From an uncultured virus (IMG/VR IMGVR_UViG_3300037408_000925) (lineage: Duplodnaviria > Heunggongvirae > Uroviricota > Caudoviricetes): a DNA stretch of 64,000 bases. A model generated the notes under the pieces. It was not told the DNA's origin and ran no database searches. It saw only the letters and a program-made list of their open reading frames with translations. Of this stretch, positions 40,207 to 57,680 are shown piece after piece. The translations under genes and the position numbers were made by a program. Numbering within the stretch: the first letter of the stretch is position 1; each line of letters starts with the position of its first letter. The DNA is taken from IMG/VR virus record IMGVR_UViG_3300037408_000925; one strand, written 5' to 3'.

Positions 40207-40242
40207 GTATAAATGAGGTATTTTAAAGTAGGGGGAAAAACA

Positions 40243-41332: not shown

Positions 41333-41346
41333 ACTTAAAAATTTAA

Positions 41347-41483: not shown

Positions 41484-41495
41484 ATTTGAAGATAT

Positions 41496-41628: not shown

Positions 41629-41639
41629 TAAAATTTATT

Positions 41640-41727: not shown

Positions 41728-41901
41728 AAAGTGTATTTCAAAGGGTCAACTATTGGAATGTAATTAAATTAGTCTTTGAAAAGCTAAGAGTATTGGAAGG
41801 ACCTCCTCTACAAATTACAGAAAGGTAGTCTTTGAAATACATTTTATAAGTTTTAAGTATTCTTCTTATATACAAGTTAGTGAGAATTATTTTTTATAGG
41901 A

Positions 41902-42213
41902 GTGATTTTTATGGCAGCAGCTACTTGTACTGTAACATACTTGACCGAAGAATATGATATAACATATGATTATACTACTGAGCCTTACCCTAATGGTAAA
42001 ATTAAAAATATTTTTACTGTAGAAAGTGGGGGAGATACAGTATTTACCCTAACAAGATACGGTAACATAACAAACTTTAGACTTGTTATTAAAGAAGTGC
42101 TTGACGGTTATTTAGCTTTATTAGCCGATATTGCTGAAACAGAGTTAGTGAAAACAGATGTGGGTGCTTGGGACGGTGACTTAGATACATACTTAAGTGA
42201 TTTCCCCGAATAA
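41902..42213 (+). CDS. Acidic hypothetical protein
   Basis: AGGAGTG RBS; upstream TTATATAC motif. Confidence 0.55.
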   Translation: MIFMAAATCTVTYLTEEYDITYDYTTEPYPNGKIKNIFTVESGGDTVFTLTRYGNITNFRLVIKEVLDGYLALLADIAETELVKTDVGAWDGDLDTYLSDFPE

Positions 42214-42492
42214 AATATATTTTTGGAAAGGAAAGTTTATGACTATATTGTTAAATAAGAATTCTAATAGCTTTAATACTTATGATACAGGCTCATCTAT
42301 TTTGCCATGTATATTTAATTATGCCATGATATTAGGACTCTTAGAACAAATATATAGGTATAGACTTAATCCTCAAAATTTCCAAAATAGGATACCCTAA
42401 CAAGAAATAACCTACTTGGATATAAGAGCTGTTAAGTCTTAAAAATTGACTTAACAGCTCTTTTTATATTAAAAAATAAAGGATGTGAAAAC

Positions 42493-43077
42493 ATGGAAAG
42501 AATCTTCTTTAACTCAACTCAGAAAAATATGAGTCTCGAAGATGTAGAAATAAACATTTTAGACTTTATAAACAAAACCCCTAGAGGAGATTTTAAAATA
42601 ATGGTAGGTACAGATTCTCAATTAATAGGTCAACAAACCTGCTTTGCTACTGGAGTTGTAATACATCGAGTAGGACATGGTGCTTGGTGCTGTATTAATA
42701 AACACATAGAACCTAGAAGAATTACAAGTCTTAGGGAAAAAATACATATGGAAACAGTCAGTACTTACGAGGTTATTTGTACTCTTAATGACCTTATTAC
42801 TCTAAAAACTTCTGAAATTCTATTGGGAAGTAAAGACTCTACATTTAAAATCGAAGCTCATATAGATGTAGGAAGAAATGGAGCAACAAGAACCCTAATA
42901 AGAGAAATGCTAGGATACTTTGAAGGTATCGGTATACCTACTCAAATTAAACCTTACTCTTTTGTTGCCAGTTCGTATGCCAACCGTTTTAGTAAAACTA
43001 CAAAGAGTTTAGATAAATTAGCAACTTTTATAGAACCTAGCTATGTTTATGCACCCTTTATGCCTAAAACAAGTTGA
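42493..43077 (+). CDS. RNase H-like YkuK (DUF458) family protein
   Basis: VGTDSQ...F.T..VIHR.G.GA...H.DVG..G.T...KP....AS..ANR. Confidence 0.85.
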   Translation: MERIFFNSTQKNMSLEDVEINILDFINKTPRGDFKIMVGTDSQLIGQQTCFATGVVIHRVGHGAWCCINKHIEPRRITSLREKIHMETVSTYEVICTLNDLITLKTSEILLGSKDSTFKIEAHIDVGRNGATRTLIREMLGYFEGIGIPTQIKPYSFVASSYANRFSKTTKSLDKLATFIEPSYVYAPFMPKTS

Positions 43078-43340
43078 TTCTGTAAAATATAACTTTTAAA
43101 AATTGTGGGTACACAACCCTTTATTAAGTTTACATTTTTTATGGTAGTGTAAAACTGTGTGACCATCACATAATTATTAAAATAAATATTGACATGGATG
43201 TGAGAATTGTGGTACGGTTTAAAAGGAATTGAATTTCATATGGACTTTGAAAATTTAATACTTGTTTTTGTACTTGTATATTAGGTGGTATGGAATCAGA
43301 CTTTTACTATTGAGTTCTGAGTAGAAAAATTATAAGATAT

Positions 43341-43420
43341 GCGGAAGTGGTGGAATTGGAAGACACATACGATTTAAGCTCGTATGCCTTAGCGTGAGAG
43401 TTCAAATCTCTCTTTCCGCA
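43341..43420 (+). tRNA. tRNA-Leu(TAA)
   Basis: TACGA tt TAA gc TCGTA; variable arm; cloverleaf. Confidence 0.9.
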
Positions 43421-43786
43421 CTAGAGGAGCAGACAATCTATGAGTAAGTTATATGAGTGTTCTAGATGTAGTGCATTAAGTACTTCTGTTGAATGGGATA
43501 TAGTAACCCTAAATAGTTGTACTAATAGACAACAGAAAAGAAGATTTATACCTTTTGAAAAAAATATTAGGGAGTTTAGAAAAGAAAAAATAAACTATAA
43601 ATGCCCTAGTTGCCTTGAATTTATAGAAAGAGCATCTATCAAAGAATCTTCTTTAGATGATGATGATATTATAAAAAATAAGTCTAGATAGTTTACTTCT
43701 ACCTCAATATTCTAATCGTCAATAAACTAGAGTATTGAGAGAGTTATGAGATAGTGGTATAATATTATTCGAGGCTCTGTAGCTTA

Positions 43787-43858
43787 GGTCTACTGGTGAA
43801 GTGGTTATCATACCAGATTGTCACTCTGGCATCACGAGTTCGATTCTCGTGTAGACCG
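43787..43858 (+). tRNA. tRNA-Asp(GTC)
   Basis: CCAGA tt GTC ac TCTGG; GGTCTAC/GTAGACC. Confidence 0.9.
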
Positions 43859-44327
43859 TTAGATTTTATTAGAAGGGAATGTGTTAGATTGTTATCAAGA
43901 ATAAAAAAATTCTTATGCTCTATTGGATGGCACGGTTATTTGATATCCTTAGATGATTTAGATGAGTATGGTTCTTATAAATGTACTAGATGTGGTGCTG
44001 TAGGTTGGAGAGATAGCCAAGGAAACTTATTTTAATTTTAGGAGGTGGAGAAGAAAACTTATGGACAAATATGCAAAAGATTTTTTAAGGGGAGCCCTAG
44101 ATGGTCGAAATTTGAACGAGATAGATGATATGTGTGATTTGTTATGTGGTGGACCTCATGATGAACCTGATGAAGAATTAGATGAGCTAGAGGGTGTTAT
44201 ATGTTGTCGTAATTGTACTGAGTATATAGATGGGCACTGTATGAGGTTTGATAAAGATGTAACACCTCAAAATGATGAAGACGCTGGTTTGTATGAGTGC
44301 TTCTTAGAGAAGAAAAAACAGATTATT

Positions 44328-44410
44328 GGGTAGGTAGGTAAATTGGTAAAACAGACAGACTGTAAATCTGTTGCCTTCGGGCTTTGTGTGTTCGAGTCAC
44401 ACCCTGCCCA
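44328..44410 (+). tRNA. tRNA-Tyr(GTA)
   Basis: ACAGA ct GTA aa TCTGT; long variable arm. Confidence 0.88.
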
Positions 44411-44598
44411 TTTCCAAACTAGGCTGAATACTAGAATGGATGTATTGAATGGAGAAGAATCATTAGTTACAAGTAAATCTGTTAGAAACATATGGTTTTG
44501 CATTTCCTTCCATAGGTCAAAAAAAGGAAATGCACTTTTTATTAAAAAATATAAAAACCTCTCAAAAAAGAGAGATTTTTTGAAAGAAATAAAAAAAG

Positions 44599-45134
44599 TT
44601 AAGCGTTTTCTGCTAGGGAACATAGACACTAATTTTTTCACATAAACCTTAGATAATGTTTATATAAGACAGTTGTAAGGTTTTTAAGAAAAAAGTAACT
44701 GAAAAATCTCTAAAAATATAACTCTAATAACTAAACATAAAATTGGGTTTTAGAGATGGGTCACAAGACATAATATTTTGTAAAAACCTTAAATCTAGTG
44801 TAGGAAACATTTATAGGAAGACCATTTAAAAAAGATTAAAAAGTAGAAAAATATTTTAGTGTTTTTGACTATAGAGAGTATCAAACTAATATTTTTAATA
44901 TAAATCCCTAATAATATTTGTAGGAAATACTCATAGGGATTTTTGTTAAAATAATACAAATAGTTTTTACTCTTGAAGTAACATAAAACAGGTGAAAAAA
45001 TACATAATATCTATAGTTGAGAAAATGAGATTTAGAGATAAAAACCTTAAAAGTGTTTACCTATAAGAGTTATAAGGATTTATTAAAAATAAGAAAAGAT
45101 AAAATTAAGCGTTTTCTGCTAGGGAACATAGACA
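44599..45134. repeat. 30-bp perfect direct repeat flanking an AT-rich non-coding tract
   Basis: TTAAGCGTTTTCTGCTAGGGAACATAGACA at 44599-44628 and 45105-45134. Confidence 0.9.
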
Positions 45135-45790
45135 TTAAATTTAAAGGAGATGATTTATATTTCAAAAGTTGATATTTTTGCACCAAAAGGTATAGAAGTA
45201 GAAGAACTTGTATGCCGTAGTTGTGGATTAATTCAGACTTGTGGAGAAGCTATATTAACTTCTTTTGAAATGAAAGATGGTAGGGTTCAAATAAGAGCTG
45301 ATTGTTATGAGTGTGGTGAGTGGATAAAGTGGGTAAAAAAAACACATGAAAATACATATTTCTTAAATAGAATGTTGGAGAGAAAAAATGCCTAAAATAC
45401 ATCTAGAAGTAAATGAACTACAAGCAGGAATTATTCAAGAAGCCTTAGATATCTATAGTAGAGTTATCATGGGTCAATTTCATGAAATGACTAAACTATG
45501 GGAAAATAATACTGAAATATGGAGAAACCAAAAAGCTAGAGATGATATAGATAAAAAGATAGAAGAAATAAGAGATATTGTATACCCCGAACTCAAAGGA
45601 TACGCTCATTGGGGTATATATAACCCTAAATGTCCTGAAACTAGTAAGATAGGGTACGATATGATTCAAGTTCTTAGAAATAGACTAGCATGGCACAGAA
45701 CCCCTAATGGAGGTCATACTGTAGATTTTGGAACTCCTTTACCTGCTAGTAAACAAGAACTTATTAAAGTGGATATTGTAGAATAGGTAT

Positions 45791-45861
45791 GCAGAATTAG
45801 TTTAATGGTAAAATGAGAGATTTCCAATCTCTGGTTATCAGTTCGATTCTGATATTCTGCT
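45791..45861 (+). tRNA. tRNA-Gly(TCC)
   Basis: AGAGA tt TCC aa TCTCT. Confidence 0.9.
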
Positions 45862-45866
45862 TTTTT

Positions 45867-45939
45867 GGGGTCTTAGCTTAGTCGGGAAAGCACCTGCCTT
45901 GCACGCAGGGGAGCGTGGGTTCAACTCCCACAGATTCCA
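45867..45939 (+). tRNA. tRNA-Ala(TGC)
   Basis: CCTGC ct TGC ac GCAGG; G3.U70 pair. Confidence 0.9.
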
Positions 45940-45946
45940 TTTAAAT

Positions 45947-46019
45947 GGCACATTAGTCAAGTGGTTAAGACATATGGTTTTCATCCATGGACTCGCAGGT
46001 TCGATCCCTGTATGTGTCA
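45947..46019 (+). tRNA. tRNA-Glu(TTC)
   Basis: TATGG tt TTC at CCATG. Confidence 0.88.
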
Positions 46020-46047
46020 TGTAATATTTATAAAGTTTGTTTATTTA

Positions 46048-46121
46048 GGGTCTTTATCTCAGCTGGTTAGAGTAGTCGGCTCATAACCGATTTGTCAGTG
46101 GTTCGAGTCCACTAAGACCCA
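46048..46121 (+). tRNA. tRNA with CAT anticodon, probably Ile2 (lysidine type)
   Basis: GTCGG ct CAT aa CCGAT; GGG..TT acceptor typical of Ile2. Confidence 0.8.
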
Positions 46122-46207
46122 CTTAAGGAACACAAATTACAAAGTCAAACGAAGATTGTACGATATATTAGAATAAGTACCCTAGTGTGATTTGTTACCT
46201 TATATTT

Positions 46208-46232
46208 TGACCAGTAGCTCAGTTGGTAGGAC
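46208..46232 (+). pseudogene. Truncated tRNA 5' fragment
   Basis: TGACCAG TAGCTCAGTTGGTAG with no T arm or 3' acceptor. Confidence 0.45.
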
Positions 46233-46335
46233 TCTGAATATGTAGCAAAAACGCTATCTTATAATACTCTCAGGAAATAAAAAAGTTTTTATATACATGT
46301 ATAGATATTATTTTAGTTTATTGGAGGGTGGTATT

Positions 46336-46740
46336 ATGAGAAAATCTGATTTGATTATTGAAGGTTTGAGTAGGATATTTGAGGCTTCTGAGTATACAAG
46401 ACCAAAAAAAGCTCCTAAAATCGGAAGTTATTTACTATTTTTAAAAGATGTACCCTATGTTGGAATAAAGTCTTCTGGAAGAGATTCCTACAAAAAAGGA
46501 AGTATTTATAAAATAGTAGGTCCAAAAGAATATGGTGGTACTATGGGACCTACAAGTGACAATGAATTTGCTCTTAGGAAGATTGATATGAAAACTAAAG
46601 CACTTGCTACTAATTGGAGTACTGATATATGGAAGATGGATGACAATCTTTCTGGTTCGGGATACAGCACTAGTTTAAGTTCTAGAAGTGTTAAAGTATT
46701 TGATACTCTAGAAGAAGCTCTTTCTGAAAAAAATATGTGA
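46336..46740 (+). CDS. Hypothetical protein, putative virion/internal protein
   Basis: GGAGGG RBS; N-terminal LIIEGLSRIFE; upstream TTATATAC. Confidence 0.55.
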   Translation: MRKSDLIIEGLSRIFEASEYTRPKKAPKIGSYLLFLKDVPYVGIKSSGRDSYKKGSIYKIVGPKEYGGTMGPTSDNEFALRKIDMKTKALATNWSTDIWKMDDNLSGSGYSTSLSSRSVKVFDTLEEALSEKNM

Positions 46741-46768
46741 TTATACTATAAGGTGAGGTAATAAAACT

Positions 46769-46963
46769 ATGCAGGATAAAGACTTGGTTTGTAAAGATTG
46801 TGGTAGTCCTTTTATTTTTACTGTAGGAGAACAAGAGTTTTATCAGGAGAAGGGATTCAACAATGACCCTATACGATGTTTAGCTTGTAGAAGAGCTAGA
46901 AAACAAAGTTATAATAGAAATTCTTACGGTGGTGGACATTACTCAGACAGTAATAATTCTTAA
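46769..46963 (+). CDS. Small zinc-ribbon protein (CxxC-x-CxxC)
   Basis: DK.L.CKDCG..F.FT.GEQEFY.EKGF.N.P.RC..CR. Confidence 0.88.
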   Translation: MQDKDLVCKDCGSPFIFTVGEQEFYQEKGFNNDPIRCLACRRARKQSYNRNSYGGGHYSDSNNS

Positions 46964-47002
46964 AATTTAGTAAACTATGGGTAGATACACTACCCTAGTT
47001 AT

Positions 47003-47075
47003 GGTCATATAGCCAAGTTGGTAAGGCTAAGGTCTGCAAAACCTTTATACACAAGTTCGAGTCTTGTTATGACCT
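47003..47075 (+). tRNA. tRNA-Cys(GCA)
   Basis: AAGGT ct GCA aa ACCTT; U73. Confidence 0.9.
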
Positions 47076-47086
47076 TTATAAAATAC

Positions 47087-47167
47087 GTGAGTGTGGTGAA
47101 ATGGCATACACGCTTGATTTAGGCTCAAGTGGGGAAACCTGTGGAGGTTCAAGTCCTCTCACTCACA
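47087..47167 (+). tRNA. tRNA-Leu(TAG)
   Basis: CTTGA tt TAG gc TCAAG. Confidence 0.9.
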
Positions 47168-47787
47168 TAGGAAGTAATCCCTAAATATATAACCACCGTT
47201 ATCTTATTACTGAATTTCAGTTTTGGTTTTAGGATGTATCCTTAGAGTATGGGGAAGTGGTTTGGAAAGTTGGATAGGTAAACTGAAGAATTACCTATCT
47301 GGCTACATTCTCTCAATAAAAAGAAAAGAGGTTTATTGTATATGTGGAAATATATTGTTATCGGAATACCTATATCAGCTTTTCTTTTAGCATGGTTAAT
47401 TTATAAAAAAGATTCAAAAAATACTTCTAATGTTGGATGCCTTATGGGAATAGAATATATAATACCCTTTCTTTTAATCTGTGTTGGGGTAGGAATATCC
47501 CTAATAATTCTTCTAACAAAATTATTTCTTTAGGATAGTGTTGGACATATGATTAATGTACTTACTTGTACAATATGTTGTTTTGTAGTAGGATGTAAAT
47601 ATATCTATGTAATACTAAATTAGTTACTCCCCTAATTCTTGTTATATTCTCACATCTAAAATGGAATGTAACAGGAATTTTTTTATTTTCTCTAAGATTC
47701 TAATTAAACTCCCTAAAGAAAAATTTTTAATAACTTATATACTAGTATGATAGATTTTTTAGTATATTATTAAAAGGAGGAAATATT

Positions 47788-48366
47788 ATGTTTTCATTAA
47801 AGAACAACTCAATAAAAATAGGTACAAAATTTAACACACCAAAACCCACCCTAGATTTTGTTAACGAGCTTGTAAAAAAAGCTAGTAAGGGTGACGAATG
47901 TAGTGCTGTAACACTCTACCAAATCTCAAAAATGGACGCTCCTTCTTATACAGCACCTGTAGCAGCTAGTACTACTATAGGAGCTGGGGATAATGGTCTC
48001 ATTACAATCACAGCAAATACAGCTTGGCTACTTGGTAATAATCTTACTATCGAAGTAGTTATTGATGAGGGAGCAAATGCTTCTCTCGCTGCTGAATTAG
48101 ATGGTAATGATATTCTTGTAACTCTTGGAACTACTGCTTCACCTGGAGTACCAGATAACGCAAAGAATACTGCTACCCTAATTACTGCTGCTATTAATGG
48201 TATCACAGGAAAAACTTTTACAGCTGTTGCTAGTGGTTCTGGTGCAACCCCTCTCGCTACTACAGTAGAACAAAAGAATTTTACTGGTGGTGTAGACGAA
48301 ATTAGAACTGAGGAAAAGAAAGCTTATGATGTAGCTGTTGCTATTATCTCTAGTCTTTTCGAATAA
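47788..48366 (+). CDS. Putative virion structural protein (sheath-like beta insertion domain)
   Basis: ITITA....GN.LTIEV...I.VTL...TA..I.AAIN...FTGG. Confidence 0.45.
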   Translation: MFSLKNNSIKIGTKFNTPKPTLDFVNELVKKASKGDECSAVTLYQISKMDAPSYTAPVAASTTIGAGDNGLITITANTAWLLGNNLTIEVVIDEGANASLAAELDGNDILVTLGTTASPGVPDNAKNTATLITAAINGITGKTFTAVASGSGATPLATTVEQKNFTGGVDEIRTEEKKAYDVAVAIISSLFE

Positions 48367-48511
48367 TTTTTAGAACTTTACCTAAATATACTTAGATAAG
48401 AGTTTGGGAGGAGCTAAAAACTCCTCCTTTCTTATCTTCTAATATTAGGACTTATACCTGTAGACTCAATTTAGAAAAGATAGATTTTATTAACTTCTTT
48501 AAGGAGAGTAT

Positions 48512-49345
48512 ATGAAATTACAACCTGTAATAAAATGGAGTGGTAGTAAAAGAAGTCAAGCTGATTATATTATAAACTTATTTCCAAAAGAAATTGATAT
48601 ATATTATGAACCCTTTGTTGGTGGAGCAAGTGTCTTATTTAATCTATTACACTCGGATATTAAAGTAAAAAAATACATTTGTTCCGATATTAATAATGAT
48701 TTAATAAGTCTGTGGAATAGAATAAAAGAAAATCCACAAGAGTTATACGAAAAGTATAATTTATTTTGGATAGAATTAAACAAAGATGAGGATATAGAAA
48801 GGCGAAAAGAGTTTTTCTACTTAATTAGAAAAAGATTTAATCAGATGAGATACCCTAGTGATTTTCTATTCCTTAGTAGGACATGTGTAAATGGACTAAT
48901 AAGATACAATTCCAAGGGGGAATTTAATACTTCACTGCACTTTTCTAGGGGTGGTATTAATCCAAACACCTTAATGACAATAATAAACGATTGGAGTAGT
49001 AGGTTAAATAAGTACAATGTTGAGTTTATTTGTAGAGATTATAGTGATATAAGAACTAACATTAATGATTTTGTTTATTTAGACCCACCTTACGCAAATA
49101 CAAAAGGTATGTATTTTGGTAAGATTGATTATGATAAATTTTGGAATTATTTAAGACAGCTGAAATCAAATTATATTTTTAGCTTTGATGGTAGAAGATC
49201 TGAAATTAACAATACATATACAGTTCCAACAGATATTTATACTAGGCATGTGTATGTGTCAAGTGGAAAAAGTAGTTTTAAATGTTTAAAAGACCAAAAA
49301 GTTGGATATGTTGAAGAGAGTTTATATATAAAAACTATGAGTTAG
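48512..49345 (+). CDS. Dam-family (D12) DNA adenine methyltransferase
   Basis: KWSGSK, YEPFVGGAS, NGL.RYN.KG.FN, YLDPPY. Confidence 0.92.
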   Translation: MKLQPVIKWSGSKRSQADYIINLFPKEIDIYYEPFVGGASVLFNLLHSDIKVKKYICSDINNDLISLWNRIKENPQELYEKYNLFWIELNKDEDIERRKEFFYLIRKRFNQMRYPSDFLFLSRTCVNGLIRYNSKGEFNTSLHFSRGGINPNTLMTIINDWSSRLNKYNVEFICRDYSDIRTNINDFVYLDPPYANTKGMYFGKIDYDKFWNYLRQLKSNYIFSFDGRRSEINNTYTVPTDIYTRHVYVSSGKSSFKCLKDQKVGYVEESLYIKTMS

Positions 49346-49493
49346 GTAAGATTGGTCAGAGATAAGAAAGGAGGAGCTAAAAATTCCTTCTTTCTTATAT
49401 TCTCCTATCATAAATTACCTAATCTCTAGTATTTGTAAGAGGAATATAATAAGATAGTGATACTCTTTTTACGTAAGAAGAGAAATATTATAT

Positions 49494-50135
49494 ATGGGGA
49501 TGGGTCATATGGAAGAATTTATAATGGTTAAGTATGAGGGAGAAAAACCTACCGTAAATGGGAGAGAATTACATGAAGCACTTGAGATATCTACAGAATA
49601 TAGACATTGGTTTCCACGTATGTGTGAGTTTGGTTTTACAGAGGGTAAGGACTTTCGGTCAATTTTGAACGAAAGTACAGGAGGGAGACCTGGTATAGAT
49701 CATGAGATAACCCTATCAATGGCTAAAGAATTATGTATGATACAAAGATCTGAAAAAGGAAGACAGTTTCGTAAATATTTTATACAGTGTGAAGAAGCTT
49801 GGAACTCTCCTGATAAAATAATGGAAAGAGCTTTTCATATAGCACATAATAGAGCTATTGAAGCCGAACGTAAAATCTTTGGATTAATGGAAGAAAATGA
49901 AACCTTAGAAATAGCCCTAAATGAATCCCTTAAATTCTTTACTGTAGCAAAATATAACAATGTCTTCAATAAAGGTTGGTCATTAAAACAATGTCAGGAT
50001 ATAGGTAAACAACTCTCAGCTTATTGTAGAAGCCATTCTATTGAAATTAGAAAATGCGAAACAAATGATGAGAGATTTGGATCTGTTAATAGCTACCCTA
50101 TTACCGTTTGGGAAGATTTTATCGAATACAACTAA
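49494..50135 (+). CDS. AntA/AntB antirepressor-like protein
   Basis: V.GRELHE.L....Y..WF.RM...GF.EG.DF...MAKELCMIQRSEKG...R.YFI. Confidence 0.88.
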   Translation: MGMGHMEEFIMVKYEGEKPTVNGRELHEALEISTEYRHWFPRMCEFGFTEGKDFRSILNESTGGRPGIDHEITLSMAKELCMIQRSEKGRQFRKYFIQCEEAWNSPDKIMERAFHIAHNRAIEAERKIFGLMEENETLEIALNESLKFFTVAKYNNVFNKGWSLKQCQDIGKQLSAYCRSHSIEIRKCETNDERFGSVNSYPITVWEDFIEYN

Positions 50136-50508
50136 AATTTCCCTCTTGACTTATAATACTCTTATGAGTATACTTATATTCTACTGATAAGAATACGATA
50201 AGAGGGGATATAAAAATGATAGAAAAACAGACGAGGGTAGTAGTTTTAAATAGTGTGAGTTTAGGTAATGAAGGTGAATGGAAGCTTTGTTTTCAATATT
50301 GTAGGTATGAATTTTGTGATTATGAGGAATTGGGGTACAGATTTATTTGGAAGAAACCTAATGGTAATTTACAAGGTGCTAGAGGTCAAGCTAAAATACC
50401 CTCAATATCTGATGCCATGGTTTTAATGAGTATGGCTATTAGAGAAGGTTGGGGACATCATAATGGTAATTTGGTAGGAAACGCTTATGTAGATATAGAA
50501 TAGTATAG

Positions 50509-50579
50509 TAGGGAATAGTGTAATGGTAGCACATGACACTTTGGCTGTTATAGTTTGGGTTCAAATCCTAATTCCCTAG
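50509..50579 (+). tRNA. tRNA-Gln(TTG)
   Basis: TGACA ct TTG gc TGTTA; U1-A72. Confidence 0.88.
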
Positions 50580-50597: not shown

Positions 50598-51077
50598 ATG
50601 GGATTATCTATGGAGAGACCCGATTGGACTTCTTATTTTATGGAGATTGCTCAAATAGTTAAAAAAAGGTCTACCTGCCTTAGAAGACATGTAGGTGCTG
50701 TACTTGTTAGAGAGCATAGAATAATTGCTACTGGATACAATGGCTCTCCTAAATGGAGTAGACATTGTGATGATGGTGGATGTCTTAGGGAAAAGATGGG
50801 GATACCCTCTGGTGAGAGATTAGACATTTGTAAATCTTTACATGCTGAAGCTAATGCTATCTTACAGTGTGCTTATATGGGTGGTCCTAATATAAAAGAA
50901 AGTGTTCTATATACAACAGTTCAACCTTGTGTTTTATGTGCTAGAATGATTAGTAGTTCTGGTATTGTTCGAGTAGTCTATGCTGAAGATTACCCTAACG
51001 AAAAATCTCTAAATATCCTAAAAGAGTCAGGTATAGATGTACATAAATATATACCACCTACTTTTAAGGGAATTTAA
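50598..51077 (+). CDS. dCMP deaminase
   Basis: RSTC.RR.VGA, TGYNG, HAEANA, PCVLC. Confidence 0.92.
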   Translation: MGLSMERPDWTSYFMEIAQIVKKRSTCLRRHVGAVLVREHRIIATGYNGSPKWSRHCDDGGCLREKMGIPSGERLDICKSLHAEANAILQCAYMGGPNIKESVLYTTVQPCVLCARMISSSGIVRVVYAEDYPNEKSLNILKESGIDVHKYIPPTFKGI

Positions 51078-51126: not shown

Positions 51127-52779
51127 ATGGCTAATTTTAAAAAACAAGTAACAAATCTACAGAACATGTTTAAACCAACTGTGAATCATGAGGGTACTAC
51201 TGTACATCAAATGTCAGACCTTGAAACTTTATTCTCACAAGTTTTAGGTTCATTCTTTGGGGAAAGCACTTACTATGAGAAAAAGAATGCTGTATCAGAG
51301 TTTAAAACTTTATACGAAAGAATACAAAGAATACCAGAGTCAGATAAAGAGTACATCCTAAAGATTGCTGAACTAGGGAGATTATGCAATATGATAGACT
51401 ATCCCCTAAATATTCTTTCTATTGTCTTTAATGATGATAGATTCTTAGGTAAGAATTTTATAGACTCTAAAGGAAAAAATAGAATATATGAGTACGCTGA
51501 TAACATCATTCAAAGAGCTAAAGATATCGTAACAATAATGTCCACTCAGATGGTCATGTTCGATAAAAGAAGCTCAGACTATATTGACATAGTAGGGAAA
51601 AGAAATGAAGCACTACCTATGCAGTTAAGGAAAACACTAAAAAGAAAGTTTGAGTCTTATGATAAATTTAAACTATCAAAAGGTCTTAGCAATAACTCTG
51701 ATGTAACCCTAAGAGATTGTATGAGACTATTAAGACCTAAACCTAAAAATAAAGACTTTGAAAAGTTCTTCAAAGAACTTAGAGAAGGTAATGTTAAAGT
51801 AGGAGATGGGAAAGCTACCATTAACACTGAATCAGTTAAAAAAGGTCAAACAAAAACTCGGGATAACTCTGGACTTATTAAAGCTGTTGAAGACGATATA
51901 CTACAAAATATACTAAAGAACCTAGTATCCCTATATAAAAAGGATGTTTTTAATGACCAAAAAACTCTAGAAACAGTTTGTAAAAGACTAAGAGACCCTA
52001 AAGAGGTTAAACAATCAAGATTACTACCTTTTAGATTCTATTCAGCTTATAATGAGTTAGATGGATATCCTACTAAAGTAATTATAAACTCACTTAAAGA
52101 AGCTTTAAGTGATGCCTTAGATATATCTGTATCTAATGTAACCCCTTTAGAGGGTATCAATTGTATTCTGTTAGATAGGTCAGGTTCTATGAATGATAAA
52201 CTATCAGATAAATCTGTGGTAACAGCTTTGGATATGTCTGCTGTTCTAGGAGCTATCGCTTATAAATGTGGTGTAGGGGATTTGTATGTATTCTCTAACT
52301 CATGTAGAAAAGTTGATATCTCTAATAAAGCTCCTGTAATGGATATTGTAAAAGCTATAAAAATGAGTATGGATGTAAGTGGTACGCAATTAAAAATAGC
52401 TTTAGATACTATTGAAGCTACGAATACCAAATATGATAGTCTTATACTTCTTTCAGATAATGATTGTTATGGATATGATTCAAAGACTAATACATTAACT
52501 TTTGGAGAGAGAACATATAGAAATGGAAGTATGATAGGTACTCCTGAAGCTCATATAAACAAACTTATTTCCAAAGGAGTATTCAAAAAAATAATACTAA
52601 ACAACCTTTTAGGGAATGATTTTGCTGTGTTTAATACCGCTTCTAATACAAAGATTCTAGCTACTGGATTCTCAGAAAGATTCTTAGAAGTTATAAACAT
52701 CCAAAATATGATGGGAAAAGATAAAGATATTAAGAAGGTTATAGACTTACTACTAGATAAACTTAAGGGTAAACGCTGA
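51127..52779 (+). CDS. rsr: Ro60/Rsr (TROVE plus vWA) RNA-binding protein
   Basis: N.EG...FFGE.TYYE; LRD.MRL.RPKP; SRLLPFRFYSAY; MIDAS LDRSGSM; GT; SD. Confidence 0.85.
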   Translation: MANFKKQVTNLQNMFKPTVNHEGTTVHQMSDLETLFSQVLGSFFGESTYYEKKNAVSEFKTLYERIQRIPESDKEYILKIAELGRLCNMIDYPLNILSIVFNDDRFLGKNFIDSKGKNRIYEYADNIIQRAKDIVTIMSTQMVMFDKRSSDYIDIVGKRNEALPMQLRKTLKRKFESYDKFKLSKGLSNNSDVTLRDCMRLLRPKPKNKDFEKFFKELREGNVKVGDGKATINTESVKKGQTKTRDNSGLIKAVEDDILQNILKNLVSLYKKDVFNDQKTLETVCKRLRDPKEVKQSRLLPFRFYSAYNELDGYPTKVIINSLKEALSDALDISVSNVTPLEGINCILLDRSGSMNDKLSDKSVVTALDMSAVLGAIAYKCGVGDLYVFSNSCRKVDISNKAPVMDIVKAIKMSMDVSGTQLKIALDTIEATNTKYDSLILLSDNDCYGYDSKTNTLTFGERTYRNGSMIGTPEAHINKLISKGVFKKIILNNLLGNDFAVFNTASNTKILATGFSERFLEVINIQNMMGKDKDIKKVIDLLLDKLKGKR

Positions 52780-52845
52780 AAAAAGAAAATAACAGGTAAA
52801 TAACGATATTGTCAGTGAACTTGTTAAACACACCTCTTTCTTATA

Positions 52846-52875
52846 CTCTCCTATATAAATTTATAGGAGAGTTTT
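52846..52875 (+). terminator. Intrinsic terminator
   Basis: ACTCTCCTATA...TATAGGAGAGT followed by T tract. Confidence 0.65.
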
Positions 52876-52895
52876 ACTCTATTAAACTTATTATA

Positions 52896-52924
52896 TTGAT
52901 TTTATTATGTTTACATGTTATAGT
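52896..52924 (+). promoter_or_regulatory. sigmaA-type promoter of the RAMP operon
   Basis: TTGATT-17-TATAGT with TG. Confidence 0.6.
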
Positions 52925-52962
52925 AATAAAGTAATAAATTGAGTAGAATAATTTAGAGAGGT

Positions 52963-53619
52963 ATGATTTGTATGACTGTAAAAAAAGCAAAGGAAAGTTC
53001 TATGTTAGTGGAGATTCCAGGAATTCAATTGAAAACTATTCGAGTAAAAGTAGTTGGAGTTACTCCTCTGATAATGCACAGCTGGTCTGAGAAAGCTAAA
53101 AAAGAGATGTTAGGAGTACAGACACAGGAAGTAAAAAAACCTAAAGAGAAAAGAAATCCTGTAAGAGATTTTATTGAGAGTATGTATTGGAAAACAGAAA
53201 TGCCAACAGAATTTACTATAGAGGATTTTGAAGAAGCTATAAATAACGGTGCAAAATTTCAATTCCCTTCTATAGCCTTTAAACTAGCCGCTGCTTCTGC
53301 TAGTTATAGAGCTAAAATGTCAAAGGATAAAGTATCAATTCTAGGAGCTTTTTACATTGAAGGAGAATTTGTTGAAATACATGGAACCCCTAATATAAGA
53401 GAAGATATGGTAAGACTTCAAGGAACCTCTGCTGATTTACGTTATAGAGGAGAGTTCAAAGAATGGAGTGCTGAATTAACTATAACTTATATGGTAAATG
53501 TTATTTCTGCTGAACAAATTATTAATCTACTCAACTATGGAGGGTTCTCTTGTGGTATAGGTGAATGGAGACCTGAAAAATCGGGTCAATTTGGTATGTA
53601 TAGAATAGAAGGTCTATAA
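52963..53619 (+). CDS. Stand-alone RAMP / Cas7-like protein
   Basis: First strand IRVKVVGVTPLIMH; FPSIAFK (cf. iPgsslK); C-terminal G-rich loop GGFSCGIGEWRPEKSGQFG. Confidence 0.7.
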   Translation: MICMTVKKAKESSMLVEIPGIQLKTIRVKVVGVTPLIMHSWSEKAKKEMLGVQTQEVKKPKEKRNPVRDFIESMYWKTEMPTEFTIEDFEEAINNGAKFQFPSIAFKLAAASASYRAKMSKDKVSILGAFYIEGEFVEIHGTPNIREDMVRLQGTSADLRYRGEFKEWSAELTITYMVNVISAEQIINLLNYGGFSCGIGEWRPEKSGQFGMYRIEGL

Positions 53620-53636
53620 TACCCTAATAAGATACC

Positions 53637-53982
53637 GAGTGTTTGTATAAACACTCTTGTACATGGTAGGTTGAGGATAGTTCTGGTTTGGTAAGTTTAG
53701 GTAAGTTAAGGCAGTCTTGGTAGGTTTGGGTGGGTTTTGGTGTGTTATGTTTTGATGTGTTGTGGCAGTCGTGGTAAGTCAAGGTAAGTTACGTTAGGTT
53801 CCTGTGATGTATGTTGAGTCTGTGTAAGTTGGTGTAAGGCAGTCGAGGTGTGTTAAGTCGAGGTTCGTTGATGTTGGTTTTGTTTTGGCAAGTTGATGTA
53901 TGGCAGTCATGGTCTTGTGGGTTAAGGTGCGTTTTGTTATGGCAGTCATGGTTTGAGTTGGTTAGTATGGATAACCAACTCA
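53637..53982 (+). ncRNA. Phased pentamer array (conserved triplet plus NN) bounded by hairpins; putative guide-RNA precursor
   Basis: 5' hairpin 53637-53656; units start at 53665, 53710, 53764, 53838, 53902 and 53941; 3' hairpin 53954-53982. Confidence 0.8.
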
Positions 53983-54000
53983 GAAGGGAGATGATATTTA

Positions 54001-54474
54001 GTGGTATTTCAATGGAGAGTAAAAACCTTTCCAGCAGATGCTCAGGTAGTTGGAGAAGTACTAACAGATATAGAGAAACGAACAGGAGAAATAAACCCTA
54101 AGACTGTGGTGGATGAGTCTAGGGATGTTGAAGCTCCTCTACATAAATGTTTTGAGTGGGATGATGTTGTAGCCGCTGAAAAACATAGAATAACACAAGC
54201 TCAACAAATGATAAGAAACATTGTGGTAGTAAGTGTGGGAGATAGTAATAATACTGAGGTAGAGCCTGTAAGAGCCTTTGTTAGTATAAGAGATATAGAG
54301 CCAAATTCACGTAGATATGTATCTATATCCTTAGCAATATCTAATGATTACTATAATGAACAAATACTTTTACAAGCTTTAAAGGAACTAGAAAATTTTA
54401 GAAGAAAATATTCAAACATATCTAAGTTCACAGAGGTTATAAGAGCTATAGATACTGTTCTGAAAGATAAATAA
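54001..54474 (+). CDS. Accessory protein co-transcribed with the RAMP gene and array
   Basis: GGGAG RBS; P..VV..SR....PLH.CFEWDD..AAE..R..QA...IR motif. Confidence 0.65.
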   Translation: MVFQWRVKTFPADAQVVGEVLTDIEKRTGEINPKTVVDESRDVEAPLHKCFEWDDVVAAEKHRITQAQQMIRNIVVVSVGDSNNTEVEPVRAFVSIRDIEPNSRRYVSISLAISNDYYNEQILLQALKELENFRRKYSNISKFTEVIRAIDTVLKDK

Positions 54475-54523
54475 GCACTCTGAATTTCTTTTATATATAA
54501 TAAAAGAAAGGTAGGTGAGCTTT

Positions 54524-55382: not shown

Positions 55383-56117
55383 ATGTCAAAAGTAAATCTG
55401 TTAAAAGAAAGAGAAGCAAAAGTTACAGTAAGTCTAAAAAAGATAACACAAAGAGAAATAATCTGTAAGGTAAATCTTGTCTTGGATATTTCGGGTTCTA
55501 TGTGTGGTGCTTATTCTTCTGGGAAAGTTCAGAGTATTGTTGAAAAAATCTTTCCTATAGCATCTAAACTTACTCCTAATGGGGTTTTAGGGATGTGGGT
55601 ATTCTCAGATAAATACTTTAAATTAAATGACCTAGATATAAATAACTTTGAGGGTTATGTACATAAATTTATAACATCAAAATCTCTTATTGGTGGAGGA
55701 ACTTACTATGCTCCCGTAATTAACTCTATAAAATTTGACCCTCAAAAAACCTTTTGGTATAAACTCTTTGTAAAAATTAAAAGACTTTTAGGCTTTAAAG
55801 TAAAAACTGATATAAATAAGAAATTACCTGTATTTAATATCTTTATTACCGATGGAGATAATACCGATAGATGGGAGTCTGAAAAAGCAATAATAGATAG
55901 CTCGAAAACAGAAAACTTCTTCCAGTTTGTGGGGACTTGGGGAAATGAATTTAATTTCCTCAGTAAATTAGATAACCTTTCTGGTAGATTTATTGACAAT
56001 GTAAATTTTTTTGAGATATCTAATATAGATTCTATGTCAGAAGAAGACCTCTATGATGCCCTATTAAAAGAATTTCCTTTATGGTTAGATAAAGCCGAAG
56101 AAAATAATATTATATGA
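55383..56117 (+). CDS. vWA domain protein (TerF-vWA-like)
   Basis: LVLDISGSM...Y.SG.VQ, GGT.YAP, FITDG, FFQFVG, L.KLD.L.GR..DN. Confidence 0.85.
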   Translation: MSKVNLLKEREAKVTVSLKKITQREIICKVNLVLDISGSMCGAYSSGKVQSIVEKIFPIASKLTPNGVLGMWVFSDKYFKLNDLDINNFEGYVHKFITSKSLIGGGTYYAPVINSIKFDPQKTFWYKLFVKIKRLLGFKVKTDINKKLPVFNIFITDGDNTDRWESEKAIIDSSKTENFFQFVGTWGNEFNFLSKLDNLSGRFIDNVNFFEISNIDSMSEEDLYDALLKEFPLWLDKAEENNII

Positions 56118-56123: not shown

Positions 56124-56474
56124 GTGATATTTATGAATGTTAATTATATTGAACCCGAAGATAAAGATTATATGAGAGCTAGAAACTTGAAGAAATCCTC
56201 TGATGCTTCTAAGATGGCTCTAGTTATAAAAGATATGGTTAAACTTGTTAGAAGAACAAAAGCTGTTATAGAAGTTTGGGGAGGTCAAGCTTATGGTAGT
56301 GATATGATAGACCCTTTCATACAAGCCTTAAAAAGAAATGGGTTTACTCCTGATGAAATTAATGATATCACCAGAGGAGTAACAAGAAAACAAGTTTCCC
56401 CTATTAAAAATACTGAGAGAAGAGAAGTAGCACCTCTCTCTGATTTAAAAAATAGAGTAAAAGACCTATTATAA
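56124..56474 (+). CDS. Hypothetical protein with the C-terminal tag
   Basis: Ends RREVAPLSDLKNRVKDLL. Confidence 0.7.
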   Translation: MIFMNVNYIEPEDKDYMRARNLKKSSDASKMALVIKDMVKLVRRTKAVIEVWGGQAYGSDMIDPFIQALKRNGFTPDEINDITRGVTRKQVSPIKNTERREVAPLSDLKNRVKDLL

Positions 56475-56491: not shown

Positions 56492-56923
56492 ATGGATGAT
56501 TTAATTTATAAAGTAATAAGTGAGAGTGAGTATAAAGCAAATACAAATGTAGATGATATACCTAAAGGACATGTACGTAAAAGAGATGAAGCTCCTTATG
56601 GTAGACTTACTGATTTTCTCTCTAGAGTAACTCGGAAGACAAAACTAGAATTGAATAGGAAATATAATGTAGCCTCATATGAGCCTAGAAATCTAGGCTC
56701 ATCTAAGTGGCCTGATTGGGTTAAGATTGTAAGTATGGATGAGTATATTTTTAAAAGAGAAACCCCCACTAGATTAGTTACTGCTAGTGGTTATCAGATT
56801 GGAAAGGAAAAAATATTAGCAATTATTGATGATGGTAAAATTGTTGATTACAACGAACTCCTTAAAAGGAGAGAAGTAGCACCTCTATCTGATTTAAAAG
56901 ATAGAGTCAAAGACCTATTATAG
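56492..56923 (+). CDS. Hypothetical protein with the C-terminal tag
   Basis: Ends RREVAPLSDLKDRVKDLL. Confidence 0.7.
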   Translation: MDDLIYKVISESEYKANTNVDDIPKGHVRKRDEAPYGRLTDFLSRVTRKTKLELNRKYNVASYEPRNLGSSKWPDWVKIVSMDEYIFKRETPTRLVTASGYQIGKEKILAIIDDGKIVDYNELLKRREVAPLSDLKDRVKDLL

Positions 56924-56927: not shown

Positions 56928-57680
56928 GTGATTAATCTAATGACTAATAAAAAATATGAGTTTGTAAAAGATGATACAATTGAAGTAAATGGAATAACCC
57001 TAACAAGAATAAAAGCTCTAAGGTCTTTTAAGTTTGTAAAAAAGGGGGAACTTGGGGGGTATATAGAAAAAGAAGATAACCTATCTCATCTTCTTACCTG
57101 TTGGGTAGGTGGAAAAGCTAGAGTGCTTGATAATGCTGTTATAGCTGAAAATGCTCGAGTGGATGGAAGTGTAATAGTAGCTGGAAATGCTAAAGTATAT
57201 GGAAAAGCTAAAGTATCTGGAACTGTTGAGGTATTTGAGGATGCTGAGGTATATGGAGAAGCTCAAGTATATGGGGAAGCTTGGATAGCTGGAGAAGCTG
57301 AGGTATTTGGAAATGCTGAGGTATTTGGAAATGCTAGAGTATATGGAGAAGCTTGGGTATATGACAGTACTAAAATATATGGAAAAGCTCAGGTATTTGG
57401 AAATGCTAAAGTATATGAATATGCTCAGGTATATGGAGAAGCTTGGGTATATGGAAATGCTTGGGTATATGGAAATGCTCAGGTATATGATAACGCCAAG
57501 GTATATGGAAATGCTGAAGTCTCTGGAAAAGCTAGGATATTTGAAAATGCTCAGGTATGTGGAGAAGCTTTGGTAGATGGAGATAAAAAAATCTTTGGAG
57601 ATACAAAATTAGATGGCAAAGTAAGAAAAGAAGTAGCCCCTTTATCAGATTTAAAAGCTAGAGTTAAAGACTTATTATAA
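56928..57680 (+). CDS. Hexapeptide-repeat protein, tagged
   Basis: Family N-terminus, repeats and tag. Confidence 0.85.
   Translation: MINLMTNKKYEFVKDDTIEVNGITLTRIKALRSFKFVKKGELGGYIEKEDNLSHLLTCWVGGKARVLDNAVIAENARVDGSVIVAGNAKVYGKAKVSGTVEVFEDAEVYGEAQVYGEAWIAGEAEVFGNAEVFGNARVYGEAWVYDSTKIYGKAQVFGNAKVYEYAQVYGEAWVYGNAWVYGNAQVYDNAKVYGNAEVSGKARIFENAQVCGEALVDGDKKIFGDTKLDGKVRKEVAPLSDLKARVKDLL

What the first reader, a model, noticed from the sequence alone, without database searches (positions are those of the whole stretch)
53665..53954. The array parses without indels into GGCA-delimited units whose information lies only in NN dinucleotides
Seen: U1 (53665) has 9 pentamers; U2 (53710) GGCA+10; U3 (53764) GGCA+14; U4 (53838) GGCA+12; U5 (53902) GGCA+7; U6 (53941) GGCA+2, then the terminal hairpin. 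Unit lengths are exactly 4+5n (54, 74, 64, 39). The triplet is almost always GGT, GTT, GTC or TGT, and is always GTC right after GGCA, while NN is free. NN strings: U1 AG GA TA CT TT AA TA AA AA; U2 TT AG TG GG TT GT AT TT GT GT; U3 GT AA AA AA AC AG CC GA AT GA TG AA GG AA; U4 GA GT AA GA TC GA TG TT TT AA GA AT; U5 AT CT GG AA GC TT AT. Inference: GGCA marks processing sites and each unit is a distinct non-contiguous guide. A one-base gap between dinucleotides would let a guide ignore codon wobble positions.
Basis: partly seen in the sequence, partly recalled or inferred. Interest (0 to 1): 0.9.

Follow-up and report, generated by a model that had tools for sequence, protein, structure and literature searches.

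The report
Phage VIPR guide-RNA array, tail-less type

Summary
Window 53665-53954 parses without indels into 54 pentamers [G/T][G/T][T/C]NN plus five 4-nt GGCA units.

The array lies between a 218-aa gene (52963-53619) and a conserved 157-aa gene (54001-54474). The 218-aa protein is a Vipr:
- It matches the SUSP1 Vipr (BLASTP E 3e-12; PDB 36pp "SUSP1 Vipr protein").
- Its model has a Cas7/Csm3 fold.
- It keeps the residues that hold G1, G2 and Y3.

In 169 of 180 related loci a same-strand pentamer array accompanies the gene. Units between GGCA steps hold 8-14 pentamers in 287 of 316 cases. This fits the 'staggered' vrRNA arrays of bioRxiv 10.64898/2026.04.26.720920.

The 1-nt-skip rule gives an excess of in-frame hits on rival vipr genes in this clade.

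For this window's own guides I found no target. Eight exact-pattern scans gave nothing, and there was no excess over shuffles. No RNA data exist, so cutting at GGCA is untested.

Verdict: a real, new member of a known kind. The scan has found VIPR on other DNA before.

One unexplained extra: U2 has a 20-nt exact antisense match to ORF 47788-48366.

The parts
52963..53619 (+). vipr gene: 218-aa stand-alone Cas7-like RAMP (phrog_4652)
   Evidence: BLASTP to SUSP1 AVU07_agp039 E 3e-12. PDB 36pp 'SUSP1 Vipr protein' E 2.3e-10 with profile A1 and 3.4e-7 with the single protein. AF2 pLDDT 85. Foldseek best hits are type VII Cas7, Csm3 and Cas7-11, with 68 matches at E<=0.001. H39, R162, E201, W202, R203 align with SUSP1 H17, R138, D177, W178, R179.
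53591..53620 (+). promoter-like site TTGGTA-18-TATAAT just upstream of the array, overlapping the vipr stop codon
   Evidence: 10 of 12 consensus matches. This is a consensus match only: the region as a whole is not enriched in such sites (10 found against 7.7 +/- 2.8 in shuffles).
53637..53656 (+). 8-bp hairpin between vipr and the array
   Evidence: Folds at -9.4 kcal/mol, z -1.19, not significant on its own. Hairpins at the same place are seen by eye in L048, L055 and L049.
53665..53709 (+). guide unit U1, 9 pentamers
53710..53763 (+). guide unit U2: GGCA junction + 10 pentamers
   Evidence: Its bases 53728-53747 are the exact reverse complement of window 47832-47851.
53764..53837 (+). guide unit U3: GGCA junction + 14 pentamers
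53838..53901 (+). guide unit U4: GGCA junction + 12 pentamers
53902..53940 (+). guide unit U5: GGCA junction + 7 pentamers (short for a guide)
   Evidence: In the family, 287 of 316 internal units have 8-14 pentamers and 2 of 316 have 7.
53941..53954 (+). last junction GGCA + 2 pentamers, running into the terminal hairpin
53952..53983 (+). terminal 13-bp hairpin closing the array, followed by the ribosome-binding site of the next gene
   Evidence: -19.1 kcal/mol, z -4.67, 1 of 200 shuffles as good. No T-run follows it, so it is not called a terminator.
54001..54474 (+). conserved accessory gene (vap-like), 157 aa, phrog_15946
   Evidence: A homolog lies beside vipr in 92 of 101 loci. AF2 pLDDT 89. 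The N-terminal 8-114 resembles winged-helix domains only weakly (Foldseek best E 0.38; VIA Z <= 6.8). Not similar to SUSP1 vap1.

Best explanation
The array is the vrRNA (guide RNA) array of a phage VIPR system.

Inferred for this locus:
- It is transcribed on the + strand, either from the promoter-like site at the end of vipr or by read-through.
- Copies of the 218-aa Vipr protein bind the RNA one protomer per pentamer. They sequester the G-K-Y triplet and present the two N bases.
- The NN bases of one unit together pair with a DNA target in which every third base is skipped, usually the codon wobble base. The filament then represses transcription of a competing phage, satellite or prophage.
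- The 4-nt GGCA units are the joints of a 'staggered' array. The last pentamer GGCAG of one guide shares its G with the first pentamer G-K-C-N-N of the next. The 5-nt register therefore slips by one at each joint, and each unit becomes a separate guide of 7-14 repeats (U1-U5).

Shown here: the anatomy, the homology and fold of Vipr, the family-wide linkage of gene and array, the guide-length distribution, and the clade-level signal for the 1-nt-skip rule.

Taken from the preprints on SUSP1 and P. fulva systems: RNP formation, the triplex/R-loop mechanism and transcriptional silencing.

Not shown for this locus: transcription, cutting at GGCA, and the targets.
For: 1. Exact parse and periodicity.
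2. The neighbouring 218-aa protein is homologous to SUSP1 Vipr. SUSP1's own locus shows YNNGG arrays around that gene.
3. RAMP fold: pLDDT 85, and the top Foldseek hits are all Cas7-type chains.
4. The residues that the cryo-EM preprint names as contacts of G1, G2 and Y3 (H17, R138, D177, W178, R179) align with H39, R162, E201, W202, R203. These are invariant or >=90% conserved in 43 clade members.
5. 169 of 180 loci fetched through the protein have a same-strand array, and 1 has a minus-strand call. Of the 11 without an array, 9 hold under 600 nt downstream of vipr and 1 is a partial match.
6. In 128 distinct arrays there are 436 GGCA 4-nt steps. Units between steps have a median of 10 pentamers, and 287 of 316 hold 8-14. 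The preprint gives 9-16.
7. Across 4833 pentamers positions 4 and 5 carry 1.90 and 1.95 bits of entropy. Positions 1-3 are biased by my detector.
8. Clade test of the rule, 360 guides against 85 distinct vipr genes: matches >=85% numbered 8 at skip 1, 0 at skip 0, 1 at skip 2 and 1 at skip 3, and 0, 2 and 2 in three shuffled sets. 13 of 16 plus-strand hits >=80% put the skipped base on the wobble position. 0 of 360 guides hit their own vipr at >=80%. Examples: an L013 guide matches 20 of 22 and an L085 guide 19 of 20 on the motif E-D-M-V-R-x-G-M-G-T of rival vipr genes.
9. Within 30 clusters of homologous units, variable columns by position 1-5 are 1, 19, 39, 20 and 18 of 312. NN drifts less than the C/T position.
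10. No self-target in the window, as the preprint reports for its systems.
Against: - No target was found for this window's guides. There were 0 exact matches for 1-nt-skip patterns of U2, U3 and U4, whole or as 10-11-dinucleotide parts, in IMG/VR (7 scans) and in the metagenome collection (1 scan). Best mismatch-tolerant matches in the window and in 0.87 Mb of related loci do not exceed shuffled guides. Only exact matching was possible in the big collections, whereas the preprint accepts >=80% NN match.
- The scaffold departs from GGY. Only 15 of 54 triplets are GGY (GGT 14, GGC 1), and GTT, GTC and TGT make up 37.
- No structured 3' tail follows each unit, unlike the tested type II systems.
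- The accessory protein is unrelated in sequence to SUSP1 vap1.
- The clade-level excess is modest (8 against 0-2).
- The 20-nt contiguous antisense match of U2 to ORF 47788-48366 is not predicted by the gapped code.
Confidence: 0.9

Rival explanations
1. The array RNA acts, wholly or in part, as an ordinary contiguous antisense RNA on the phage's own genes. U2 would pair with the 5' coding region of ORF 47788-48366 and control it, independently of or in addition to Vipr.
For: Array 53728-53747 is the exact reverse complement of window 47832-47851 (20 nt), extending to 25 of 27. 0 of 300 arrays with shuffled triplets and NN reached 20 nt (one reached 19, one 17; the mode was 12-13). The site lies at codons 13-21 of a + strand ORF with a strong ribosome-binding site.
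Against: Only 1 of 5 units has such a match, and complementarity stops abruptly outside the 27 nt. In VIPR RNPs the triplets are buried in protein. In related loci I saw 1 self antisense 14-mer match (L098) among 180 loci, although only about 3 kb of flank was held on each side. The matching gene segment is itself a 4-pentamer array-like string on the minus strand, so a recombination relic is possible.
Confidence: 0.07
2. The array is a protein sponge or assembly RNA of the TRAP kind. Its triplets every 5 nt would bind a ring or helix of protein subunits, the NN bases being mere spacers that carry no information.
For: The 5-nt period with a conserved triplet and free dinucleotide is formally like the (G/U)AG-NN sites of TRAP (recalled knowledge, not tested). 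No target was found for this window's guides.
Against: The partner protein is a Cas7-like RAMP homologous to a protein shown to use NN as a guide (preprint). Guides of this clade match rival vipr genes in the wobble frame above controls. NN is conserved within homologous units while position 3 drifts. Spacers without information should drift fastest.
Confidence: 0.02
3. The array is a DNA-level element, such as an origin, a packaging site, a centromere-like iteron array or bent DNA, and not an RNA.
For: The lag-10 autocorrelation is the strongest (z 6.4), close to the helical repeat. No RNA evidence exists for this locus.
Against: There is strict strand asymmetry, and the array has the same orientation as vipr in 169 of 180 loci against 1 on the other strand. 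Homologous arrays in SUSP1 are transcribed and co-purify with Vipr (preprint). The lag-10 signal comes from the alternation of GGT and GTT pentamers.
Confidence: 0.01

Closest known systems
VIPR systems with 'staggered' vrRNA arrays (bioRxiv 10.64898/2026.04.26.720920, legend of fig. S18)
   Same: [quoted passage not shown] Here that is GGCAG/GKCNN sharing the G, seen as a 4-nt GGCA step. Neither has a structured tail between guides.
   Different: I could not see the figure or data S4, so I cannot say whether the published example uses the same GGCA joint or which of the seven types this is. Here the scaffold is G-K-Y (GTT 22, GGT 14, GTC 8, TGT 7 of 54) rather than GGY. The preprint says this architecture was not among those confirmed by sRNA-seq.
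Type II VIPR of Escherichia phage SUSP1 (Vipr, vap1, four vrRNAs; PDB 36pp)
   Same: The Vipr proteins are homologous (E 3e-12). H/R/[D or E]-W-R contacts are conserved. A small accessory gene is present. Guides have 9-16 repeats. Rival vipr genes are targeted (here).
   Different: In SUSP1 each vrRNA has its own flanking sequence and a roughly 40-nt pseudoknot tail, and the gene order is vrRNA-vipr-vap1-vrRNAs. Here five guides are fused head to tail between vipr and the accessory gene, with one hairpin at the very end. The accessory protein shows no sequence similarity to vap1. The G-loop has E where SUSP1 has D.
Class 1 CRISPR-Cas Cas7 backbone with crRNA (type III Csm3, type VII Cas7)
   Same: The protein fold is the same. 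One protomer binds per fixed RNA step, and a thumb flips bases out at regular intervals (preprint).
   Different: There are no CRISPR repeats (no CRISPR-DR family at gathering score in the window) and no cas1, cas2 or other cas genes beside it. The step is 5 nt with 2 pairing bases, not 6 nt with 5 pairing bases. The guide is written into the repeats themselves.
TRAP-trp leader RNA (recalled, not tested)
   Same: Triplets are spaced every 5 nt and read by a homo-oligomer, with two free bases between them.
   Different: The protein fold is unrelated. In TRAP the spacers carry no information, whereas here they are the guide.

Membership tests
VIPR system | Vipr protein: small stand-alone RAMP with RRM core, glycine-rich loop and thumb | tested here: met
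   218 aa. AF2 pLDDT 85, pTM 0.78. Foldseek gives 68 PDB matches at E<=0.001, the top ones Cas7 (type VII), Csm3 and Cas7-11. The G-loop GxGEWRP is invariant in the clade. Sequence homology to 'SUSP1 Vipr protein' 36pp and to SUSP1 agp039.
VIPR system | Residues that hold G1, G2 and Y3 of each repeat (SUSP1 H17, R138, D177, W178, R179) | tested here: met
   They align with H39, R162, E201, W202 and R203 (and for H39). H39, R162, E201 and R203 are invariant and W202 is >=90% conserved in alignment A1. D177 is replaced by E. The residue roles are taken from the preprint.
VIPR system | vrRNA: tandem 5-nt repeats, conserved GGY alternating with variable NN, 9-16 repeats per guide | tested here: met
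   54 pentamers in units of 9, 10, 14, 12 and 7. Position 1 is G in 47 of 54, position 3 is Y in 53 of 54, and NN uses 14 different dinucleotides. The deviation is at position 2, which is T in 30 of 54, so the consensus is G-K-Y. The preprint allows 'a related consensus'.
VIPR system | Array linked to vipr, on the same strand, outside any CRISPR-cas context | tested here: met
   169 of 180 loci have a same-strand array. The window has no CRISPR-DR hit at gathering score. The neighbouring genes are TROVE/Ro60-like, phrog_15946 and vWA-TerF-like, not cas genes.
VIPR system | Accessory vap gene next to vipr | tested here: inconclusive
   A conserved 157-aa neighbour is present in 92 of 101 loci. 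It has no sequence similarity to SUSP1 vap1 and no Pfam, NCBIfam or PADLOC family. Winged-helix-like matches are only middling. I could not see which of vap1-6 it might be (figures and data files not held).
VIPR system | Targets read by NN with a 1-nt skip | tested here: inconclusive
   For this window's guides there were 0 exact hits in 8 collection scans and no excess over shuffles locally. For the clade the feature is met modestly: 8 guides >=85% at skip 1 against 0-2 in controls, with 13 of 16 in the wobble frame.
VIPR system | vrRNA expressed, processed and bound by Vipr | not testable with these tools
   The three runs that hold the locus are DNA contigs of wetland metagenomes. No RNA holder is listed.
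Type II VIPR (SUSP1 / P. fulva) | Each vrRNA ends in a conserved structured 3' tail (pseudoknot, about 40 nt) | tested here: not met
   The units abut through 4-nt GGCA joints with nothing between them. The only structure is one hairpin after the last unit. The locus is therefore not filed as type II.
CRISPR-Cas | Repeat-spacer array with contiguous spacers plus cas1/cas2 adaptation genes | tested here: not met
   No CRISPR repeat family was found, the 5-nt units carry 2-nt variable parts, and there are no cas families in the neighbouring ORFs.

The most novel reading that the evidence does not exclude
In this tail-less clade the guide boundaries may be set by phase alone. The 4-nt GGCA joint shifts the 5-nt register by one, so a Vipr filament growing along one unit cannot continue in register into the next. 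The short out-of-phase joint (family logo GGCA|G-K-C-R-W-GG) is left exposed for a host RNase. Guide length would then be measured without a structured cap, a ribozyme or a Cas6-like nuclease. Together with a scaffold relaxed to G-K-Y and a D-to-E change in the G-loop, this would be a distinct solution for making many guides from one compact transcript. As a further possibility, the unprocessed precursor may also act as a plain antisense RNA on the phage's own ORF 47788-48366.
Probability: 0.3. Interest if true: 0.55.

Novelty: new member of a known kind. Interest (0 to 1): 0.4.

Why it matters
VIPR was described only in 2026, and its tested examples are two type II systems of Proteobacteria. 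This locus comes from a large, low-GC phage of a wetland metagenome that has no close relative in the phage, IMG/VR or metagenome collections searched.

It belongs to a widespread clade: 148 IMG/VR stretches, 304 metagenome stretches and 20 species genomes encode a relative of the protein. Many of the genome records are titled as gut Firmicutes.

In this clade:
- Five or more guides are packed head to tail with only a one-base phase slip between them.
- The scaffold tolerates T at the second position.
- Leading guides often aim at the most conserved motif of rival vipr genes.

These points extend the published picture and give concrete material for testing how tail-less arrays are cut. They do not reveal a new kind of system.

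Tried and rejected
- **Known RNA families.** Rfam gave nothing for the array. At gathering score the window has only 13 tRNAs, and the permissive search gave only chance-level rows.
- **DNA relatives.** blastn of 52900-54500 against 50,697 phage records found no match. No whole genome is held for the window.
- **Targets, exact patterns.** All 1-nt-skip patterns gave 0 matches. In IMG/VR I scanned U3 whole, U4 whole (43), U2 whole (44), U3 dinucleotides 1-10 (56), U4 1-10 (57), U3 5-14 (97) and U4 3-12 (98). In the metagenome collection I scanned U3 1-11. U1 and U5 were not scanned, because they hold too few specified bases.
- **Targets, mismatch-tolerant scans.** U1-U5 at skips 0-3 gave nothing above shuffled guides at skip 1, either in the window or in 0.87 Mb of loci. 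U4 at skip 3 (20 of 24, 1 of 100 shuffles as good) and U3 at skip 2 (22 of 28, 3 of 100) are isolated. I did not follow them up.
- **Close relatives of this array.** I looked for them to compare guides, but the best Vipr identity anywhere was 57%.
- **Expression and processing.** No RNA holder is listed. The three DNA runs hold identical sequence with no variants.
- **Host.** The helicase gene finds no close phage relative, so I did not scan genomes with mismatch-tolerant patterns.
- **Accessory protein.** It has no family in Pfam, NCBIfam, PADLOC or PHROGs beyond phrog_15946. Foldseek gave no match at E<=0.001.
- **ORF 47788-48366.** No Pfam or PHROG family.
- **Self antisense matches in relatives.** 1 of 180 loci within about 3 kb of flank, so it is not a general feature at that range.
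- **Coding reading of the array.** Rejected. A 5-nt period with free dinucleotides does not fit codons, and the ORFs across it are short and lie on both strands.

Full report
**Observation**

It holds 54 pentamers and five 4-nt GGCA units with no indel, in units of 9, 10, 14, 12, 7 and 2 pentamers.
- Position 1 is G in 47 of 54 pentamers, position 2 is T 30/G 23, and position 3 is T 44/C 9. Positions 4 and 5 use all bases.
- GTT, GGT, GTC and TGT make up 51 of 54 triplets, and GTC follows GGCA in 5 of 5 cases.
- Identity at lag 5 and lag 10 exceeds base shuffles (z 3.9 and 6.4).
- G+T is 76% in the array against 50% in the window.
- No other array exists in the 64 kb.
- The stretch is intergenic. 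It lies between a 218-aa ORF (52963-53619) and a 157-aa ORF (54001-54474), all on the + strand.
- Rfam has nothing for it.

**What it is**

A full-text search for pentanucleotide repeats in phages led to bioRxiv 10.64898/2026.04.26.720920. I read its Results, Discussion, four Methods sections and the supplementary figure legends.

The preprint describes VIPR systems:
- a roughly 20-kDa stand-alone RAMP protein (Vipr);
- vrRNAs of 9-16 YNNGG repeats whose NN dinucleotides pair with DNA while one target base per repeat is skipped, usually the codon wobble base;
- accessory vap genes;
- seven types and several array architectures, among them 'staggered arrays' in which neighbouring vrRNAs overlap by 1 nt.

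A companion preprint, 10.64898/2026.04.26.720927, gives the cryo-EM mechanism (abstract, two Results sections and passages read). A third, 10.64898/2026.10.15.759431, shows phage-satellite competition and vrRNAs aimed at rival vipr genes (abstract and two sections read). A fourth, 10.64898/2026.10.21.760802, I saw only in the search listing.

**Membership tests**

The 218-aa protein (phrog_4652, no Pfam family) passes each protein test:
- It aligns with the SUSP1 gene product AVU07_agp039 over its whole length (BLASTP E 3e-12, 23% identity).
- That SUSP1 gene is flanked by YNNGG arrays, as published.
- It also matches PDB entry 36pp, named 'SUSP1 Vipr protein' (profile E 2.3e-10; single sequence E 3.4e-7).
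- Its AlphaFold model (pLDDT 85) finds Cas7 chains of type VII, Csm3 and Cas7-11 as best matches, with 68 matches at E<=0.001.
- The residues named in the cryo-EM preprint as holding G1 (H17, D177), G2 (R138, W178) and Y3 (R179) align with H39, E201, R162, W202 and R203. These are invariant or nearly so in 43 clade members.

The protein brought in 80 IMG/VR loci, 20 species-genome loci and 80 metagenome loci, at no more than 57% identity.
- A pentamer-path detector finds a same-strand array in 169 of these 180 loci and a minus-strand call in 1.
- Of the 11 loci without an array, 9 hold under 600 nt downstream of the gene and 1 is a partial match.
- The 157-aa protein (phrog_15946) has a homolog beside vipr in 92 of 101 loci. 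The order is vipr-array-gene in 55 and vipr-gene-array in 36.
- It is not similar to SUSP1 vap1.
- Its model (pLDDT 89) resembles winged-helix domains only weakly, so its class stays open.

**The GGCA joints**

In 128 distinct arrays I counted 436 four-nt GGCA steps. The units between two steps hold 8-14 pentamers in 287 of 316 cases, with a median of 10. This agrees with the published guide length.

The joint has a wider signature, GGCA|G-K-C-R-W-GG. After the joint, C at position 3 occurs in 0.80 of cases overall. In T-type arrays it is 0.53 against a background of 0.27. The window's invariant GTC after GGCA fits this.

Read as GGCAG overlapping GKCNN by the shared G, this is the 1-nt overlap of the preprint's staggered arrays (legend of fig. 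S18). The preprint states that the hammerhead-interspersed and single-vrRNA architectures were confirmed by sRNA-seq, so staggered arrays appear untested.

I infer that the one-base phase slip itself separates the Vipr filaments of neighbouring guides.

**Does NN carry information?**

Between guides, positions 4 and 5 have 1.90 and 1.95 bits of entropy, and 580 distinct units form only 30 small homologous clusters. Within those clusters the variable columns by position 1-5 are 1, 19, 39, 20 and 18 of 312. NN changes about half as often as the freely toggling C/T position. This is the mark of a constrained message, not of a spacer.

Close pairs of loci support this. Examples are L107/L109 (vipr 99.5% identical) and L016/L169 (98.2%). 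They differ by scaffold substitutions and by gain or loss of whole units.

**Testing the 1-nt-skip rule in this clade**

I scanned 360 guides against 0.62 Mb of held loci. Matches of 90% or more numbered 6 at skip 1, 0 at skip 0, 1 at skip 2, 5 at skip 3 and 0 for shuffled guides. All 5 skip-3 hits were L038 guides matching the unmasked sister array of L039.

Against 85 distinct vipr genes:

| Guide set | Matches of 85% or more |
|---|---|
| skip 1 | 8 |
| skip 0 | 0 |
| skip 2 | 1 |
| skip 3 | 1 |
| shuffled, three sets | 0, 2, 2 |

- 13 of 16 plus-strand hits at 80% or more put the skipped base on the wobble position.
- No guide matched its own vipr at 80% or more, 0 of 360.
- Several leading guides aim at the motif E-D-M-V-R-x-G-M-G-T of rival vipr genes. 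L013 matches L001 at 20 of 22, and L085 matches L068 at 19 of 20.

The signal is modest, but it agrees with the published targeting of rival VIPR systems.

**This window's guides**

No target was found.
- The window has no self-target, as expected.
- Held loci give nothing above shuffles.
- Eight exact gapped patterns found nothing in IMG/VR or the metagenome collection. These scans allow no mismatch.
- The phage has no close relative in any collection.
- The locus occurs in three wetland-metagenome runs as identical DNA contigs, with no RNA. Expression and processing could therefore not be examined.
- A promoter-like site (TTGGTA-18-TATAAT, 53591-53620) lies just before the array. This is a consensus match only.
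- A strong hairpin (53952-53983, z -4.67) lies just after it.

**Unexplained**

Laying contigs showed that array 53728-53754 matches, in reverse complement, another place in the same contig.
- The match is 20 nt exact, and 25 of 27 when extended, with window 47825-47851.
- That site lies at codons 13-21 of the + strand ORF 47788-48366, which has no known family.
- No shuffled array reached 20 nt (0 of 300; the maximum was 19).
- The gapped code does not predict a contiguous match.
- It could be a second, antisense use of the precursor, a recombination relic, or chance. I could not tell which.

**Verdict**

The kind has been in print since 2026, and this scan has met it on other DNA. It is a new member of a known kind. 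Its open points are processing at the joints, the targets, the accessory protein and the antisense match.

Noticed in passing
window 47825-47851 (ORF 47788-48366, +) versus array 53728-53754: A 20-nt exact reverse-complement match, 25 of 27 when extended, links the middle of guide unit U2 to codons 13-21 of an upstream ORF of unknown family. 0 of 300 shuffled arrays reached 20 nt. The gene segment is itself a 4-pentamer array-like string on the minus strand.
   Followed up: partly
window 51127-52779 (+), and the gap 52780-52962: A TROVE/Ro60-like protein with a Ro60-type vWA domain (Pfam TROVE E 6e-11; phrog_850 'RNA-binding protein') lies directly upstream of vipr. A terminator-like hairpin at 52845-52872 sits in the gap after it. 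Bacterial Ro60 homologs work with Y RNAs (recalled). No Y-RNA family was found by Rfam in 52700-54100.
   Followed up: partly
window 39964-50579: 13 tRNA genes lie on the + strand (Met x2, Leu x3, Lys, Asp, Tyr, Gly, Ala, Glu, Cys, Gln), interspersed with small ORFs. This fits a large phage.
   Followed up: no
window 56124-56474, 56492-56923, 56928-57680: Three consecutive ORFs end in nearly the same C-terminal peptide (...EVAPLSDLK-x-RVKDLL). The third is a beta-solenoid (YdcK/bactofilin-like) protein. Four more solenoid paralogs lie at 6880-7758, 15763-16677, 16692-17588 and 22426-23346.
   Followed up: no
window 55383-56117: A vWA-TerF-like protein (Pfam E 6e-52) lies two genes downstream of the VIPR locus. 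With the Ro60 vWA domain it is the second vWA protein within 5 kb.
   Followed up: no
window 18951-19883, 36411-37598, 48512-49345, 50598-51077: ThyX, two DNA methyltransferases (N6_N4 and Dam-like D12 class) and a dCMP deaminase. This is a nucleotide-metabolism and DNA-modification set of a large virulent-type phage with no close relative among 50,697 phage records.
   Followed up: no
L013:3616, L017:3634, L012:3634, L085:690, L093:3116, L008:3648 (first guide units of related arrays): In several related loci the first guide after vipr matches, by the 1-nt-skip rule and in the wobble frame, the conserved E-D-M-V-R-x-G-M-G-T region of other loci's vipr genes. It never matches its own.
   Followed up: yes
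window 53043-53079, runs X1-X3: A separate 603-nt contig, at 4-5 times the depth of the phage contig, matches 37 nt of the vipr gene with 6 differences in all three wetland runs. It may be a second, more abundant VIPR-bearing element in the same habitat.
   Followed up: no
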